Origin: Vulcanimicrobiota bacterium
GTDB taxonomy: Bacteria; Vulcanimicrobiota; Vulcanimicrobiia; Vulcanimicrobiales; Vulcanimicrobiaceae
DNA length: 64,000 bases
Assembly: GCA_963723515.1 (NCBI GenBank)
Contig: CAVRQT010000003.1
Location: forward strand, 992,001-1,056,000
Direction: 5' to 3'
The position numbers were made by a program, and so were the translations under genes. This document shows positions 42,614 to 48,091 of the stretch, in pieces (position 1 is the first letter of the stretch; the number at the start of each line of letters is the position of its first letter). The notes under the pieces are model-generated. The model had not been told where the DNA came from, made no database searches, and was given only the letters and a program-made list of their open reading frames with translations.

Positions 42614-43622
42614 TTACGCCGAGCCTGGTTTGGCTTGCACGCTTGGCCGGCTTGAGAGCCCTGCGAGCTCGGCCGTTAACATCTCGACAAGCAATCGCTG
42701 GTCGTCGATCTTGCCGGTGACGAGCGCTTCAAAGGCTCGCACGGCGCGCTCATATGCATTTCTGCGCGCGACGCTCACCGACGCGCGCCGCAACCGGACG
42801 CAAAAACCGTTCGCGCCACTTTGCACGCGGCGGCAGCGTGCCTCCCGGTCGAGCCAATTCCCACAGCAAGCTCAATTCAGTCGCCAGCGCTGCAATCAAC
42901 GGCACACCGGCCTTGCGCGGATCCTGTTCGAAGAGATCCGTTGCGATCTCGAAGCGCCGCATCGACGTTGCCCTCGACGAGCGCGCTCGCATATTTGTAC
43001 GCCTTCGGATCCTCAACCGCGAGGCTCTCCCGCTCCAGATCCGCATACGAGATTTTCTTGTGCGTCAAAGCGAGCTTTTCAAGATCGTTGCGAATTGCGG
43101 CGAGCTCCGCCGTCGCTGAGGAAAGCTGATCGATAACGCGCGCTTCCGCTTTGACGCCCGAGCGTCTCGAGCAGCTCTTCGAATGTAGCGCTCGCGCACC
43201 GGAGCATTCGCCGTCGTGTCGATACGCAGAGCATTGCGGCCCGCCAAAACGCCAAAGGGTTCCGGCCGTTTCGCGCGCGGCGAGAGCAGATCGCAAAGCA
43301 CCAGCGTGTTCCCCTCGGGCGTCTGCTCGGCGACCTCCCACAACTCTCGACGTAACGGCGTCTTCATCGTTTGCGCGTCGGTCACGACAATCACGCGCCG
43401 GTCGGCCAAGAACGGCATCGCGCTCACCGCCTCAGCGATGCGCGCCGTATCTTCGATCTCGGGGCCGTGAAAGCGGTCGACGTTTAGCGCTCGCGCCTCG
43501 GCCGGCAGCGCGCGATCGAGCAGAAGTTCCAAGGCGCGTTCGGCCAACGTGCGTTCCGTGCCCTCGATGATGACGAGCTTTGCGAGCTTCGGGGCCTTGT
43601 CGATGAACTCGTAGTACTTCAT
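42614..43622 (-). CDS. holA: DNA polymerase III delta subunit (frameshifted)
   Basis: [20 protein letters not shown] and NDLEKL motifs. Confidence 0.75.
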
Positions 43623-44623
43623 GCGAACGCTGCGACGCTGGGGCGATTCGCGAGATCGCGGAATTGATTCCGAGTATGGCGGTTGCAGAATTCCGTATTC
43701 GGTGATGAAGGCCGTAATCAATCGCGCCGGCGTCACGTCGAACGCCGGATTGTAGGCGCGCGTACCGCTGTCCGTGCTCGAGGCGCCCGCGAAGGTGCGA
43801 ACTTCATCGCCGCTGCGCTCTTCGATCGGAATCTTCGCGCCGCTTTCCAGCGTCAAGTCGAACGACGAGCGTGGCGCGGCAACATAAAACGGAATGCCGT
43901 GATGCGCGGCCGCGATTGCGAGCCCATAGGTGCCAATCTTATTTGCCGTATCGCCATTGCGCGCGATGCGATCGGCGCCGACGATGACGAGGTCAACGTT
44001 TTTTTGCTGCATCGTGACGGCTGCCGCACTGTCAACGATCAGCGTCGCATCGATTCCGGCGTGCTTTGAGCTCATACATCGTTAGGCGAGCGCCTTGCAG
44101 CAGCGGTCGCGTTTCGCAGGCGTAGACCTGCAAGATTCTTGTGAATCTTGCCGCGGCAATAATCGCGCCCAGCGCCGTTCCGCCGCCGGCGGTTGCGATT
44201 GGGCCGGTATTGCAATGCGTCAAGACGCGCGACACGCCTGAAAAGATGGGCAACGCCGCTTCCGCGATCAGGCGGTCGATCGCGCGCTGCTCCTCGTGGA
44301 TCGCATCTGCCTCGGCCAACATATCTTGCGCAGCGCAGTACCCGATCCACGGCCCAACTCAAATTCACGGCCGTCGGCCGCGCGATGCGAATGCGCTGCA
44401 CTGCGGCATTGAACTGATCGTCGTCTGTGATGTTCCGGCGCAACAGCACAACCGCATAAGCGCCGAAAACACCGAGCGCGGGCGCGCCACGAATTGCCAA
44501 GCTCTTGATCGCCGACTCGAACTCGTCAACGGTCTGCGCGCGAACGACGACCGTTTCGTGCGGCAAGCGACGCTGATCGAGATATTCGATCGCATCGCCT
44601 GCCCAACGTAACGCTTCCTTCAC
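43619..44623 (-). CDS. mtnA: S-methyl-5-thioribose-1-phosphate isomerase (frameshifted)
   Basis: [57 protein letters not shown] and NPAFDVTP. Confidence 0.93.
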
Positions 44624-45084
44624 GCCGGAATTTGCAAGACGCTCGCGGCGGCCATCGCGCGCAGCATAGCCTTTGTTGCCGCGTTTCGGATCGGCACGCT
44701 CCGCGGCTTGTTCGTACGTATTCGGTCGTGAGAATGCCGAAGCCGATTGGACGTCCGGTTTCCAACTGCACGTTCATCAGCCCGCGCGCACATTCGGCCG
44801 CGATGTACTCAAAATGCGGCGTCTGGCCGCGAATGACGGCGCCGAGCGCGACAAGGCCATCGCAGCCGCCCGCGAGCGATAACGCGCGCGGCTGCGATCG
44901 GCAGTTCAAAGCATCCGGCGACGTCGTAGGTCGTGACGTGTCTCGATGCCGCGCCGCACTCGTGCAGTGCAGCCTTCGCGCCTTCCAAGAGCTGATCCGC
45001 AAGATCCGGATAAAAGCGTGCGCAGACGACCGCAATGCGCTTTCCGCGAAGACTGTAGCGCTGCTGCTGTGCAGCATGCTTCAC
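44620..45084 (-). CDS. ribH: 6,7-dimethyl-8-ribityllumazine synthase (frameshifted)
   Basis: RIAVVCARF, VAGCFELP and ALGAVIRGQTPHFEYI. Confidence 0.9.
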
Positions 45085-46491
45085 TGCGAGACGGCTTCCG
45101 CCGAGAAGAGATGTCCTAACTTCGAACGTTTGGTTTCGATGTAACCGGAGTTAAACGCAGTCGGCGGCGGTTTGAATCGGGACGCGGTCGATGATGCGCA
45201 AGCCATAGCCCTCCAATCCGAAAATCTTCTTCGGGTTGTTCGTCATCACGCGCATTTCGCGAACGCCAAGATCGAAGAGAATCTGGGAGCCGATTCCGTA
45301 GTCGCGTTTGTCAATGGGAAGTCCGAGCGCCACGTTGGCCTCGACGGTGTCCATGCCGCGATCTTGCAATTCATAGGCGCGCAGCTTGTTGGCAAGGCCG
45401 ATGCCGCGTCCTTCTTGGTGCAGGTAGAGAAAGACGCCGCGCCCTTCCTCGGCGATCATGGCCAGCGCGCCGTCGCGTTGTGCGGCGCAGTCGCAGCGGA
45501 TTGAATGCAACGCATCGCCGGTGAGACATTCGGAATGCACGCGAACGAGGATATTCTTGCCGTCGCCGATCTCGCCCATAATCGCCGCCACGTGGGTCAA
45601 GCCGTCGATCGCGCTTTCGTACGCAACGCCTTGAAAACTGCCGAACGTCGTCGGCAATGCGAAATCTGCAATGCGCTGCACGAGCTTTTCATTACGCATG
45701 CGATAGGCGATCAAATCTTTGACGGTGATGAGGCGCAGATGATGGTTCTTTGCAAAGACGCGCAGCTTGTCGAGACGCGCCATCGTGCCGTCATCCGCCA
45801 TGATTTCGCAGATCACGCCGGCGGGATAGAGGCCGGCAAGTCGAGCGAGATCAACGGCGGCTTCAGTTTGTCCCGCGCGCACGAGCACGCCGCCGTCGCG
45901 GGCTCGCAACGGAAATGTGTGGCCCGGCCGCAAGAAATCGGCTGGACGTGCATTCGGATCGATGAGCGCGGAAATCGTCGCGGCGCGATCGTAGGCCGAG
46001 ATACCGGTCGTCGTTCGGCCACGCGCTTCAACGGAGATCGTGAACGCCGTTTCATGGACGGCGGTGTTTTCGGAAACCATCTGCGGCAGCTGCAGCTCCT
46101 CGAGCCGCTTGCCGGTCATCGGGACGCAAATCAGGCCGCCGGCTTCTTTGCGCATGAAGTTGATCGCTTCGGGCGTGACCATCTGCGCAGCCATGACGAG
46201 ATCGCCTTCGTTTTCGCGATCCTCGTCATCGAGCACGACGACCATCTTGCCGTCGCGGATATCTTTGATAGCAGAGTCGATCGTGTCGAATGCCGATGCG
46301 TCCGGTGGCTTCGCTAAGTCGGGCAGCACCGTCGAAAGGCGCTGCAGCGAGCGGAACGACGGCTCGCGCTGGCCCGAGCGGAGGTAGGAAATCGCGGATT
46401 CTGTTAAGCCGGAGCGCTCGGCCAGCTCGGCCGCGTTGAGGCCGGCGGCATCCATGGCGGATTTGAGAGCGTCAGCGAAGGTGAGCGGCAC
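45081..46491 (-). CDS. ribBA: XRE-family HTH fused to DHBP synthase / GTP cyclohydrolase II (C-terminal frameshift near 45165)
   Basis: N-terminal AELAERSGLTESAISYLRSGQREPS; DDEDRENEGD, RVHSECLTGD, QEGRGIGL and MTNNPKK. Confidence 0.93.
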
Positions 46492-46584: not shown

Positions 46585-46595
46585 CCACCGCCGAT

Positions 46596-46624
46596 ATGAA
46601 AGAGCCGCCCGTTAAGGGCGGCTC
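46596..46624 (-). terminator. Intrinsic terminator
   Basis: Minus strand GAGCCGCCC-TTAAC-GGGCGGCTC (9-bp perfect stem) followed by TTTCAT. Confidence 0.7.
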
Positions 46625-46652
46625 ACGCTGCTGGTAGCAGTAGCACCGTCTT
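46596..46652 (-). ncRNA. Putative ~55-nt sRNA antisense to the adjacent tRNA-like RNA
   Basis: Extended -10 TG-G-TATGAT (TATGAT at 46657-46662), then GACGGTGCTACTGCTACCAGCAG complementary to the tRNA-like D-arm and anticodon, then the terminator. Confidence 0.5.
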
Positions 46653-46680
46653 GACTATCATACCACAGCGGAGCCGCGGT

Positions 46681-46748
46681 TGGAGGTTACGGGAATCGAA
46701 CCCGCCAGCCGGCATTGACGGTGCTACTGCTGCACCAGCAGAACCCCC
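46681..46748 (-). tRNA. Non-canonical compact tRNA-like gene (68 nt; G3:U70/A73; GTC at the anticodon position)
   Basis: GGGGGTT/AACCTCC-A acceptor stem; GCGGG-TTCGATT-CCCGT T-arm; TGCT-GGTGC-AGCA D-arm; TAGCA-CCGTCAA-TGCCG anticodon arm with one mismatch. Confidence 0.65.
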
Positions 46749-46899
46749 GACTGTTCAATCACGGCCCAACCGACGCTGCCAAGTGGCGTAACGATTCACA
46801 TGATCTGCGTGGCGTGACAGTCACGCGCCTCTCCTACGGCCTGGGCGCTGCTCGGGACAAGCGCAAAGCGTAGCGTGACGCAGTAGCAAACATCGCCCA

Positions 46900-48091
46900 A
46901 TGACCACGTTGCTGCAGCGATGGAGATGGCGGCCGGCAGTCGTCATCTATGGCGCCGGCATGCTGCAGGGCTTTGCCTTCACGCTCGTGCCGGCGTTGGC
47001 AACGGTCTTCGCGGCGGCGCCGTATCACATCAATTCACGCGGCTTCGGCATTCTTTTCATTCCGCTGACCGTCGGCGCAATTATCGGCGCTGCCTTAACG
47101 CCGAAACTCGCGGCGAAAACCGACACTGTAACGGTATTGCGCGCCGGCGTTGCTGCCAACATCGCCGCGCTTGGTCGCGCTTCTGATCGCCTCCACGAAC
47201 GCCCGGCAGCGCTGCTTATGTCTTGCTGCTCGTTGATACAACCGCGCTTGGCCTCGGCTTCGGCCTCAATTTCTCGGCGGTCAACGAGCTTGCATCAAAG
47301 CTCTCAGCCAACGAAACGGCTTCCGTCACGATCGCCAACGTTCTCACCGGCCTCGGAACGAGCTTGACGCCGATTATTCTCGGCGCATTTATCGTCCGTT
47401 ACGCGTGGTGGCTATGGCCGGCGCTGCTGTTGATCGCGTTCGCTGCTGTGCTCGTGCTCTCGTCGCGCTGGCGCGAAGCTCGATCGTCTTCAATCGTTCG
47501 TGCGCGCGGCGTTTCACGAACGCTCGATCTTGTTCGGCGTCGCCGCGCTGCTCTACGCGTTTTGCGAAGGAACGTTTTCGAGTTGGGCAACGACGTTTGC
47601 GCACCTCGATCGCGGTTTCTCGCTCGCTACGGGAGAGGCGGCGCTCACCGCTTTTTGGCTCGCGCTGACCGTAACACGCTTAGCGCGCCGCATTCGCGAC
47701 GCGCGTTGTGCCGCCGCGCACGGCGTTCGTCATCTTTCCGGTTCTTATCGCTGCGGCGTTCTTCTGCTTGCCGCTCTGGAAAACCGCAACGCTGCTCGTC
47801 GTCGGATTCGCGCTCGGCGGCGTCGCCTGCAGCATCGTCTTCCCATTTGCAATGTCGTTGGCGCTCGATGCGATGCCCACTGATGCCGATCGCGTCGCCG
47901 GCGTTATGGTGGCGGCGCTGATGACGGGCGAAGGGTTCGGAACGTTCCTTGTCGGCGCACTGCACTCTGACGCGCATCTGTCGCTTGCGGCGATCTACCG
48001 CATCGCGGCCGTCGTTGCGTTCGCCTTGGCGATCGTCTCAATGCTTGCCCGAAGCGCCTCTCGCGAAAGTGCGGTGAACGTCAGATCGTAA
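46900..48091 (+). CDS. MFS sugar transporter (frameshifted)
   Basis: Hydrophobic helices over four frames; LLYAFCEGTFSSW and SIVFP motifs resemble FucP-like MFS. Confidence 0.75.

What the first reader, a model, noticed from the sequence alone, without database searches (positions are those of the whole stretch)
46681..46748. Compact non-canonical tRNA with Ala acceptor identity but Asp anticodon
Seen: GGGGGTT C TGCT GGTGC AGCA G TAGCA CCGTCAA TGCCG GCTG GCGGG TTCGATT CCCGT AACCTCC A. It has a 7-bp acceptor stem with G3:U70 and discriminator A73, the established AlaRS determinants (tRNA-Asp normally has G73). The 7-nt loop centres on GTC (Asp), and the T-stem GCGGG/CCCGT matches what I recall for bacterial tRNA-Asp. 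The 1-nt acceptor-D linker and 5-nt D-loop resemble tRNA-Pyl geometry. It has C33 instead of U33, one anticodon-stem mismatch, and no encoded CCA. Inference: it could insert Ala at Asp codons, serve as a non-ribosomal Ala donor, act as a decoy for AlaRS or anticodon nucleases, or be a tmRNA-like acceptor domain without a message.
Basis: partly seen in the sequence, partly recalled or inferred. Interest (0 to 1): 0.8.

Follow-up and report, generated by a model that had tools for sequence, protein, structure and literature searches.

The report
tRNA-like RNA with built-in antisense partner
The odd "tRNA" is real and belongs to a previously undescribed, conserved family of small-RNA cassettes in one class of Vulcanimicrobiota (Eremiobacterota) bacteria, in which an alanine-type tRNA look-alike is followed by its own matching antisense RNA.

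Summary
It has a 7-bp acceptor stem with G3:U70, A73, a canonical T-arm, a CCGUCAA loop and no encoded CCA. ARAGORN and Rfam do not call it.

It is not a decayed tRNA. It is the 5' domain of a ~190-nt cassette (46782-46594). After the tRNA-like domain come an extended -10 element, a 23-nt segment complementary to tRNA-like nt 8-32, and a terminator.

Two further cassettes lie in the same genome. Covariance models find the family in 69 of 151 genomes of the class, and in 0 of 70 genomes from other families of the phylum. Named records are Vulcanimicrobiaceae (Eremiobacterota/WPS-2).

G3:U70 is kept in 99 of 101 members and A73 in 100 of 101. Both the cloverleaf and the long-range antisense helix show compensatory changes.

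Best reading: an AlaRS-type tRNA mimic whose fold is controlled by a cognate antisense segment or short RNA. Its downstream function is unknown. No Rfam family or paper found matches it.

The parts
46754..46782 (-). Conserved promoter-like region upstream of the tRNA-like RNA: TTGGCA (46782-46777), 17 nt, then TG-A-TTGAA (46761-46754). G1 lies 6 nt after it.
   Evidence: Read. Most of the 20 parsed members have CTTGTC/CTTGAC, about 17 nt, then TGAT(T/G)GA about 6-9 nt before G1. The -10 part is non-canonical, and the strict scan does not call it.
46681..46748 (-). tRNA-like domain, 68 nt:
- acceptor 5' strand 46748-46742
- D-arm 46741-46730
- extended anticodon-like arm 46729-46706, with loop CCGUCAA at 46721-46715
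- T-arm 46705-46689
- acceptor 3' strand 46688-46682
- A73 at 46681
   Evidence: MFE cloverleaf, -27.4 kcal/mol. R1 gives 22.3 bits, E 0.005. R2 gives 59.6 bits against 35.6 or less for real tRNAs, though R2 was trained on a set that includes this element. Cloverleaf covariation.
46662..46680 (-). Small hairpin directly after A73 (8 pairs including G-U pairs, 3-nt loop).
   Evidence: A hairpin at this place recurs in family members, with compensatory changes in 3 pairs (helix 13).
46657..46665 (-). Internal extended -10 element TG-G-TATGAT. There is no good -35 in this member.
   Evidence: Family-wide, the best sigma70-like site in the trailer ends from 9 nt inside to 8 nt before the antisense segment in 101 of 101 members, with score mean 8.5 against 5.3 shuffled. 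The finding itself was not among those 101. The strict two-hexamer scan finds none at this locus.
46628..46650 (-). Antisense segment GACGGTGCTACTGCTACCAGCAG, complementary to tRNA-like nt 8-32 (D-arm, 5' strand of the anticodon-like stem, and the loop up to GUC).
   Evidence: Perfect 15-nt inverted repeat 46636-46650 / 46717-46731. In the MFE the long helix forms, z = -6.4. Local-alignment score 40 against a shuffle maximum of 31. Compensatory changes relative to G128.
46594..46624 (-). Intrinsic terminator: GAGCCGCCC TTAAC GGGCGGCTC, then TTTCATAT.
   Evidence: 9 pairs, 8 of them G-C, minus strand only.

Best explanation
The element is a working gene for the 5' domain of a two-part small-RNA cassette (window 46782-46594, minus strand). 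The cassette belongs to a conserved family found so far only in one class of Vulcanimicrobiota (Eremiobacterota/WPS-2).

Part 1 is a compact tRNA mimic. It has a 7/5 acceptor/T branch, a GG-containing mini D-arm, a 7-8-bp anticodon-like stem and an anticodon-like 7-nt loop. It carries the complete alanine identity set.

Part 2 lies on the same strand. It has a promoter-like element, then a 20-40-nt segment complementary to the mimic from about nt 4-8 through the loop, then a terminator.

Shown:
- the architecture and its conservation;
- compensatory evolution of both the cloverleaf and the long-range pairing;
- cognate specificity of paralogous cassettes within a genome.

Inferred mechanism:
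1. The mimic folds first during transcription.
2. It is matured like a tRNA. The 3' cut falls after A73, and CCA is added by the genome's CCA-adding enzyme.
3. AlaRS charges it.
4. The complementary segment nucleates on the exposed anticodon-like loop and strand-invades the D-arm and the acceptor 5' strand. It acts in cis in read-through transcripts, and in trans as a ~55-nt RNA from the internal promoter.
5. This unfolds the mimic and switches it off, probably marking the duplex for RNase III.

The cassette therefore sets the amount of free, chargeable tRNA mimic. What the free mimic does is not known.
For: Family and architecture:
- Three cassettes occur in the own genome.
- R1 finds the family in 22 of 61 relatives.
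- R2 finds it in 69 of 151 genomes of the class and 38 of 151 of the phylum sample, with no hit outside families f1 and f3 (0 of 70).
- 60 of 80 listed named records carry the domain, mostly Vulcanimicrobiaceae.

Alanine identity:
- G1-C72, G2-C71, G3:U70, G4-C69 and A73 are invariant in 20 of 20 members, while pairs 5-7 covary.
- G3:U70 is kept in 99 of 101 and A73 in 100 of 101.
- The same five features occur in the genome's three tRNA-Ala genes.
- AlaRS and a CCA-adding-type enzyme are present.

Cloverleaf:
- 93.9% of cells are paired against 80.5% shuffled (0 of 500).
- 13 of 24 pairs have double changes.
- Covariation score is 0.353 against 0.11 or less in slid controls.

Antisense pairing:
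- Present in 20 of 20 parsed members, with 22-42 pairs; 15 of 20 exceed all 200 shuffles.
- Median 31 pairs over 101 members.
- On 72 distinct sequences the helix core has 9 of 9 pairs with double changes and is 96.3% paired. The whole structure scores 0.320 against 0.056 or less when slid.
- G-U pairs fit RNA on this strand only.
- The cognate pair scores best in 11 of 11 within-genome rows.

Internal promoter:
- Score 8 or more in 91 of 101 trailers against 123 of 2020 shuffles, always abutting the antisense start.
- A perfect TATAAT occurs in distant members.

Energetics at this locus: the long-helix form is 17.2 kcal/mol more stable than the cloverleaf form, and trans binding gains 18.6 kcal/mol.

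The finding itself: compensatory changes against G128 in all helices.
Against: - There are no expression data of any kind. Transcript ends, CCA addition, charging and the existence of a separate short RNA are all inferred.
- At this locus the strict promoter scan finds nothing. The internal element has only an extended -10, and the upstream -10 is non-canonical throughout the family.
- In the full-length transcript the cloverleaf is the less stable fold by 17 kcal/mol, so the mimic may rarely form unless processing is fast.
- This member has C33, as do about a quarter of the family. It scores only 22.3 bits with the independent model R1.
- R2 was trained on a set that includes it.
- The alignment behind one search was fitted to the model's structure, which favours that structure.
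- For 5 of 20 members the antisense score did not exceed the best shuffle.
- No conserved protein partner was found. The only recurrent neighbour is housekeeping rlmN, at one subtype.
- The assembly has indel errors.
Confidence: 0.6

Rival explanations
1. RNA-only toxin-antitoxin-like module. The free mimic is a decoding tRNA charged with alanine that reads Asp (here), Ile or Val codons, or jams the ribosome. This is harmful. The short antisense RNA is a labile antidote that keeps it unfolded, and loss of transcription frees the toxin.
For: - The loops copy real anticodon loops of tRNA-Ile, tRNA-Val and tRNA-Asp, including positions 32, 37 and 38.
- ARAGORN reads 19 of the 24 members it calls as Ile(gat), Val(gac) or Asp(gtc).
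- The alanine identity set is invariant.
- The internal promoter is near consensus while the upstream one is weak.
- Genomes carry 1-5 copies, sometimes in tandem arrays, and the distribution is patchy (58 of 115 genomes in f1).
- Cognate pairs are orthogonal.
- The finding's subtype is not syntenic with its relatives.
Against: - About a quarter of members, including this one, have C33. From established knowledge, U33 is near-universal in decoding tRNAs.
- The anticodon stem is 7-8 bp with a bulge instead of 5 bp.
- One subtype sits next to rlmN in seven genomes, which suggests vertical inheritance more than a selfish element.
- It was not found on viral contigs.
- Toxicity is untested.
Confidence: 0.15
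2. The short 3' RNA is the real effector: a trans-acting regulatory sRNA with a 5' seed and a terminator hairpin. The tRNA-like domain is its dedicated sponge, or a processing and stability handle.
For: - The predicted short RNA has the usual sRNA build: a ~25-35-nt 5' region plus a terminator hairpin.
- Its promoter is strong.
- From established knowledge, tRNA-precursor spacers acting as sRNA sponges are known in E. coli (recalled, not checked here).
Against: - The would-be seed varies freely and co-varies with the mimic, even between orthologous rlmN-linked loci. That is not expected if it had to match conserved mRNA targets.
- A sponge would not need an invariant G3:U70/A73 set or a canonical T-loop.
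Confidence: 0.1
3. A single RNA acting as a conformational switch. There is no separate short RNA. The promoter-like motif is an RNA motif or a coincidence, and the transcript toggles between cloverleaf and long hairpin, for example to sense tRNA-processing or AlaRS capacity.
For: - There is no terminator between the two halves, so read-through transcripts must carry both.
- Both folds are under selection.
- This locus lacks a -35.
Against: - The -35, 17-nt spacer and TG-extended -10 are kept at a fixed distance from the antisense start in members that share no other trailer sequence. These include perfect TATAAT sites.
Confidence: 0.1
4. Message-less tmRNA-like domain. The alanine-charged mimic acts with SmpB on stalled ribosomes, or titrates SmpB.
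For: - G3:U70/A73 and the T-arm are as in tmRNA.
- Some members get sub-threshold tmRNA hits of 27-31 bits, and the finding gets 21.1 bits.
Against: - All scores are below the gathering score of 47.
- The genome's tRNA-Ala genes score as high or higher with the tmRNA model (22.8-36.6 bits).
- A D-stem and an anticodon-like arm are present where tmRNA has none.
- There is no tag frame and no pseudoknots.
- A normal tmRNA exists at G000:C1:47840-48193.
Confidence: 0.03
5. Decayed pseudo-tRNA or integration-site remnant with a chance inverted repeat.
For: - tRNA finders and Rfam do not call it.
- It is single-copy by BLAST.
- No BLAST-level homologue was found in 40 relatives.
Against: - More than 100 structural homologues share its architecture.
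- Compensatory changes occur in all helices.
- No genuine tRNA of the genome shares its 3' half.
Confidence: 0.02

Closest known systems
tRNA-Ala and the AlaRS identity set
   Same: G1-C72, G2-C71, G3:U70, G4-C69 and A73, a 7/5 acceptor/T branch, and a T-loop TTCGATT. By global alignment the closest tRNA in the genome is tRNA-Ala(GGC).
   Different: No Ala anticodon. Mini D-arm, 0-1-nt linker, 7-8-bp anticodon-like stem and a 1-2-nt variable region. Not called by ARAGORN or Rfam tRNA. It is followed by a cognate antisense segment.
tmRNA tRNA-like domain (Rfam RF00023)
   Same: Alanine identity and T-arm. Weak full-length matches to the tmRNA model (21-31 bits).
   Different: Below the gathering score. 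It has a D-stem and an anticodon-like arm, and no message, pseudoknots or tag. The genome has a separate normal tmRNA.
Allo-tRNAs with G3:U70 and other natural mistranslating tRNAs (PMC5389517 and PMC7609411, passages read; tRNA-ProA recalled only)
   Same: Bacterial tRNAs whose acceptor identity disagrees with the anticodon. Some are linked by their authors to toxin-antitoxin or mobile contexts (passages).
   Different: Allo-tRNAs have 8/4 or 9/3 acceptor/T branches, whereas this family is 7/5. No cis-encoded antisense partner is mentioned in the passages I read.
Antisense-RNA control pairs (type I and type VIII toxin-antitoxin systems, plasmid copy-control RNAs)
   Same: A short RNA with a strong promoter pairs extensively with a partner RNA, probably nucleating at an exposed hairpin loop. 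Cognate pairs are specific.
   Different: Both RNAs are on the same strand, so complementarity comes from an inverted repeat and not from overlapping transcription. The target is a tRNA mimic and not an mRNA. No peptide frame is conserved.
Bacterial Y-RNA-like YrlA (a long stem plus a tRNA-like module)
   Same: A long helix combined with a T-arm-containing tRNA-like part.
   Different: No Rfam match at E<=10. No Ro/TROVE protein gene was found in the genome, which is 88% complete. Here the acceptor ends are open, and the long helix competes with the tRNA-like fold instead of extending it.

Membership tests
Canonical elongator tRNA | Recognised by tRNA finders or Rfam RF00005 at gathering score | tested here: not met
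   ARAGORN finds 0 genes in the window. Rfam gathering gives 0. At E<=10 the only hit is tRNA-Sec at 22.6 bits against 47. ARAGORN of 105 family members, not this one.
Canonical elongator tRNA | Cloverleaf with a 7-bp acceptor, a 5-bp T-stem and a 7-nt T-loop | tested here: met
Canonical elongator tRNA | U33, purine 37, 5-bp anticodon stem, 2-nt acceptor-D linker, variable loop of 4 nt or more | tested here: not met
   C33 and A37; a 3+4-bp stem with an internal loop; 0-1-nt linker; no variable loop.
AlaRS substrate (alanine identity) | G3:U70 wobble pair, A73, and G-C pairs at 1-72, 2-71 and 4-69 | tested here: met
   Present here. Invariant in 20 of 20. G3:U70 in 99 of 101 and A73 in 100 of 101.
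AlaRS substrate (alanine identity) | Actually aminoacylated with alanine after CCA addition | not testable with these tools
   AlaRS and a CCA-adding-type enzyme are encoded. No RNA run was listed.
tmRNA (RF00023 / RF01849 / permuted) | Rfam gathering score; tag reading frame and pseudoknots between the two halves of the tRNA-like domain | tested here: not met
   21.1 bits against 47. No alpha_tmRNA hit. Only the T-arm matches the permuted model. The 68 nt leave no room for a message.
tRNA-Sec (RF01852) | Gathering score, 13-bp acceptor/T branch, UCA anticodon | tested here: not met
   22.6 bits against 47. The branch is 7/5 and the loop reads GUC. A genuine tRNA-Sec lies at G000:C2:402559-402653.
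Allo-tRNA | 8/4 or 9/3 acceptor/T branch | tested here: not met
   7/5 in all 20 parsed members. The definition is taken from PMC5389517 (abstract and passages).
YrlA / bacterial Y RNA | Rfam model match; linked Ro60 (TROVE) gene | tested here: not met
   No hit at E<=10. PF05731 was not found in the 88%-complete genome.
   R1 (trained without this element) gives 22.3 bits, E 0.005 genome-wide. R2 gives 59.6 bits. All parts are present. This member has only an extended -10, no -35.
Antisense toxin-antitoxin-like pair (type I / VIII) | Separate short antisense transcript; harmful partner | not testable with these tools
   There is promoter-like conservation only. No transcript or toxicity data exist.

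The most novel reading that the evidence does not exclude
An RNA-only addiction or defence module of a new type. The 'toxin' is an alanine-accepting tRNA mimic that carries a genuine Asp, Ile or Val anticodon loop. It would mistranslate or stall ribosomes. The 'antitoxin' is a short, strongly transcribed anti-tRNA RNA that docks on the anticodon loop and unzips the cloverleaf. Paralogous cassettes are kept orthogonal by co-varying helix sequences.
Probability: 0.15. Interest if true: 0.92.

Novelty: new variant of a known kind. Interest (0 to 1): 0.8.

Why it matters
tRNA mimics with alanine identity are known (tmRNA, some allo-tRNAs), and so are antisense RNA pairs. I found no known system that couples a tRNA mimic to its own same-strand anti-tRNA RNA. 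Neither Rfam 15 nor five full-text searches turned up a match.

The family is common in an almost uncultured soil and peat phylum. It is present in about half of the sampled genomes of one family, at 1-5 copies each.

It is also a clean natural case in which one stretch of RNA is under selection for two mutually exclusive pairings.

If the mimic is charged and used, this is a new route to regulated mistranslation, alanine donation or RNA-based toxicity. If it is not, it is still a new class of structured RNA that genome annotation currently misses, or miscalls as tRNA-Ile, tRNA-Val or tRNA-Asp.

NCBI places the cultured genus Vulcanimicrobium in the same family, so tests may be possible in a living host.

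Tried and rejected
- **BLAST of the 211-nt locus.** It is single-copy in the own genome. In 40 relatives only T-arm-sized hits appeared. Sequence search alone would have suggested an orphan.
- **MAFFT alignments.** They slipped the 5' register of shorter members. I used anchored parsing and model-based alignment instead.
- **RNAduplex on whole trailers.** It gave sloppy global duplexes and was replaced by a local-alignment scan.
- **RNA data.** No RNA holder was listed for the locus.
- **Y-RNA idea.** No TROVE gene and no Rfam hit.
- **Cis-regulator of the downstream gene.** Rejected, because neighbours differ between loci and the rlmN-linked subtype is convergent with its neighbour.
- **Small-peptide idea.** A frame starting in the D-loop of locus 2 is not kept in locus 3 (read).
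- **tmRNA-like tag frame in the 3' segment.** Not conserved between loci (read).
- **DNA-level palindrome or att site.** Rejected because of G-U pairs, strand-specific terminators, and covariation of the local hairpin.
- **Viral contigs.** Three pattern matches, none with the domain.
- **Metagenome scan for the finding's subtype.** Of 80 listed loci, one carries the domain clearly (58.3 bits) and one marginally (43.2 bits, below my ~45-bit working cut-off). The other 78 are chance matches.
- **Synteny of the finding's subtype with ribBA.** Not kept in G163 and not assessable in G128.
- **Earlier findings of this scan.** Nothing was on record.
Full report
**Observation**

It has these features:
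- a 7-bp acceptor GGGGGTT/AACCTCC with G3:U70, and A73;
- a T-arm GCGGG-TTCGATT-CCCGT;
- a 7-nt loop CCGTCAA;
- ACC, not CCA, after A73.

Folded alone it gives a cloverleaf as its MFE, at -27.4 kcal/mol.

Standard detectors reject it:
- ARAGORN finds no tRNA or tmRNA in the whole window.
- Rfam 15 gives nothing at gathering scores.
- At E<=10 the best hit is tRNA-Sec at 22.6 bits against a cut-off of 47. A tmRNA-type match covers the T-arm only.

The missing CCA is unremarkable. Many of the genome's 45 ARAGORN tRNA genes, including all three tRNA-Ala, lack it. The genome also has a canonical tRNA-Asp(GTC), a tRNA-Sec and a normal tmRNA elsewhere. By global alignment the nearest tRNA is tRNA-Ala(GGC), which has the same first five acceptor pairs and A73.

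**The element is half of something larger**

A perfect 15-nt inverted repeat (46636-46650 / 46717-46731) links the body of the 'tRNA' to a segment 30 nt downstream of A73. Extended, it pairs nt 8-32 with 23 nt. A terminator follows at 46624-46602, with its T-run on the minus strand only.

The 159-nt stretch folds at -84.7 kcal/mol, with z = -6.4 against shuffles. In that fold the long helix replaces the D- and anticodon-like arms.

A descriptor scan of the 2.1-Mb genome gave 47 hits. Five of these were not ordinary tRNAs, and three of those share this architecture:
- the finding;
- G000:C2:101829-101900, which ARAGORN miscalls as tRNA-Ile(gat);
- G000:C2:835158-835229.

All three have the tRNA-like domain, a spacer with a TG-n-TAT-nnT motif, a segment complementary to their own body, and a strong terminator. 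The helix sequences differ between loci but stay complementary. RNAalifold on loci 2 and 3 finds 9 pairs with double changes.

**A conserved family**

Model R1 was built only from loci 2 and 3. It finds the finding's element at 22.3 bits, E 0.005 genome-wide. It matches 22 of 61 genomes in the relatives sample, G000 included, at E<=0.1, many of them at E below 1e-20, and one genome has three tandem copies. That tally includes the unpublished G022 and G045, whose sequences I did not use.

I parsed 20 members: 3 from G000 and 17 from 14 other genomes.
- All have a 7-bp acceptor in which G1-C72, G2-C71, G3:U70, G4-C69 and A73 never vary.
- Pairs 5-7 and T-stem pair 49-65 covary.
- The T-loop is TTCGATT in 17 of 20.
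- None encodes CCA.

The cloverleaf is supported on this alignment. Cells are 93.9% paired against 80.5% in shuffles (0 of 500). Thirteen of 24 pairs have double changes, 7 of 8 of them in the anticodon-like stem. The covariation score is 0.353 against 0.05-0.11 for slid controls.

Model R2 covers the tRNA-like domain. In the own genome it scores the three cassettes at 59.6-89.7 bits and genuine tRNAs at 35.6 or less, though the three were part of its training set.

With R2 at E<=1e-7:
- 69 of 151 genomes sampled from the class have it: f1 58 of 115, f3 10 of 32, f2 0 of 3. This tally includes the unpublished G150.
- Genomes carry 1-5 copies, some in tandem arrays about 310 nt apart.
- In a phylum-wide sample 38 of 151 have it, all in f1 or f3, and 0 of 70 in the 19 other families.

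A motif scan of named genome records returned 119 stretches, of which 80 were listed. Of those 80, 60 carry the full domain at 54-95 bits:
- 50 are named Eremiobacterota or Vulcanimicrobiota lineages, which NCBI places in Vulcanimicrobiaceae;
- 5 are labelled just 'bacterium';
- 5 are MAG contigs labelled as other groups.

The other 20 listed loci lack the full domain and are probably chance pattern matches. I therefore infer, but was not told, that the window comes from this phylum.

**The finding's own subtype**

Genomes G128 and G163 (both f1) and two metagenome contigs (one only marginal, at 43.2 bits) carry close relatives. They share the GGGGG-Y-T acceptor, the CTGC-YGGT-GCAG D-arm, a short trailer with an extended -10, the antisense segment and a terminator.

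Between the finding and G128, compensatory changes occur in the acceptor (T6-A67 to C6-G67), the T-stem, the anticodon-like stem and the long-range helix. The finding is therefore a maintained gene, despite the indel errors visible elsewhere in this assembly.

G128 and one metagenome copy have U33 (CUGUCAC, CUGUCAA) where the finding has C33.

**The antisense half**

In 20 of 20 parsed members a downstream segment forms 22-42 pairs with the body of the tRNA-like domain. It usually runs from nt 4 through the loop. Fifteen of 20 exceed all 200 shuffles, and 5 do not.

I compiled 105 distinct members and analysed 101 of them. Four were dropped: two for an atypical T-loop, and two, including the finding, because the stored trailer was too short. 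Over the 101:
- G3:U70 holds in 99 and A73 in 100.
- The antisense segment has a median of 31 pairs.

On 72 distinct full-length members aligned to R1:
- the structure is 91.5% paired against 81.1% shuffled (0 of 500);
- the covariation score is 0.320 against 0.056 or less for slid controls;
- the core of the long-range helix has double changes in 9 of 9 pairs;
- many G-U pairs occur, which only make sense as RNA on this strand.

That alignment was fitted to the model's structure, which favours it.

Within genomes that hold 3-4 cassettes, each body pairs best with its own segment in 11 of 11 rows.

**A second promoter**

The best sigma70-like site anywhere in the trailer scores 8 or more (maximum 13) in 91 of 101 members, against 123 of 2020 shuffles. 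It always ends between 9 nt inside and 8 nt before the antisense segment. TTGCGA-like -35 hexamers at 17-nt spacing and a TG extension are common. Distant members have perfect TATAAT sites.

This suggests that the antisense segment plus terminator is also made as a separate RNA of about 50-65 nt.

At the finding's locus only TG-G-TATGAT is present, and the strict two-hexamer scan reports no promoter.

A conserved CTTGTC/CTTGAC, about 17 nt, then TGAT(T/G)GA motif lies 6-9 nt upstream of G1. It may be the first promoter, but its -10 part is non-canonical.

**Mechanism (inferred)**

The same 5' strand is under selection to pair with two partners: the local 3' strand (cloverleaf) and the distal segment (long helix).
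- At this locus the long-helix form is 17.2 kcal/mol more stable in the full transcript.
- The short RNA would gain 18.6 kcal/mol on binding the free mimic.
- The distal segment begins with the complement of the 7-nt loop, which is the only long single-stranded stretch of the cloverleaf. It ends over the D-arm and acceptor nt 4-7, so binding must unfold the mimic.

I propose the following sequence:
1. The cloverleaf folds first.
2. It is cut after A73 and given CCA. A CCA-adding-type enzyme is encoded.
3. AlaRS charges it, as the invariant identity set implies.
4. The antisense segment or short RNA titrates it.

**What the free mimic does is open**

The loops look like true anticodon loops of tRNA-Ile (YUGAUAM), tRNA-Val (YUGACAC) and tRNA-Asp (CUGUCAC, identical to the genome's own tRNA-Asp loop). 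ARAGORN reads 19 of the 24 members it calls accordingly. This keeps alive a mistranslating or toxic tRNA with an RNA antidote.

Against decoding are C33 in about a quarter of members and the 7-8-bp bulged stem.

No protein partner emerged. One subtype sits convergent to rlmN in seven genomes, which looks like plain synteny. The finding's subtype is not syntenic with its relatives.

**Comparison with known families**

- It fails membership tests for tRNA (detectors), tmRNA, tRNA-Sec, allo-tRNA (whose branch is 8/4 or 9/3) and YrlA.
- It meets the sequence rules for AlaRS recognition.
- Ten members scanned against Rfam at E<=1 gave only sub-threshold tmRNA, tRNA and tRNA-Sec hits.
- Full-text searches found no description. 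The searches covered tRNA-like/AlaRS/tmRNA, allo-tRNA, Eremiobacterota with tRNA, tRNA-like/antisense/RNA toxin, and tRNA-like/structured ncRNA/WPS-2.
- For PMC5389517 and PMC7609411 I read only matched passages. For all other papers I saw only listings and abstract starts.

**Verdict**

The real object is a new, lineage-restricted family of tRNA-mimic/antisense cassettes. Confidence is high for the family and architecture, moderate for antisense control and alanylation, and low for any specific downstream function.

Noticed in passing
window 45151-46491 (-): The ORF just downstream of the cassette joins an N-terminal XRE-type HTH domain (residues 9-56) to RibBA (DHBP synthase plus GTP cyclohydrolase II). 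Relatives have similarly long open frames (469 and 456 aa), so the fusion may be real. No FMN riboswitch was found anywhere in the window.
   Followed up: partly
window 43065-44623, 44526-45077 and 46900-47921; G000:C2:554031-555559: Several genes are split or truncated across frames: an IF-2B-family gene, DMRL synthase, an MFS transporter, and AlaRS (in three frames, with 4 in-frame TGA in one piece). This points to indel errors in the assembly.
   Followed up: partly
G000:C1:47840-48193 (+): Rfam's tmRNA model finds a standard tmRNA at 92.3 bits, but ARAGORN run with tmRNA detection reports none in the genome.
   Followed up: no
L035 and L037 (G033, G037); L209-L211 (G091): In members from family f3 the trailer carries an extra hairpin whose loop is also complementary to the anticodon-like loop region. 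This gives a possible second, kissing-type contact before the antisense segment.
   Followed up: no
L014, L015, L018-L026 (family f1 cassettes): The shared terminator hairpin is unusually conserved across genera and is capped by a GNRA-type tetraloop (GUAA, GCAA, GAAA). This suggests more than a plain terminator.
   Followed up: no
L084, L091, L092, L144, L153: Five MAG contigs deposited under other labels (Babeliales, Gammaproteobacteria, Acidoferrum, Acidiferrales, Alphaproteobacteria) carry high-scoring cassettes (85-93 bits). They may be mis-binned or mislabelled, or the RNA may occur outside the phylum.
   Followed up: no
G073:C3:689510-690516; G019:C87:79387-80156: Some genomes hold tandem arrays of three or four complete cassettes at a spacing of about 310 nt.
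   Followed up: partly
L019:738-1280 and L031:2104-3078: DUF4760 proteins flank cassettes in two unrelated loci. This may be coincidence.
   Followed up: no
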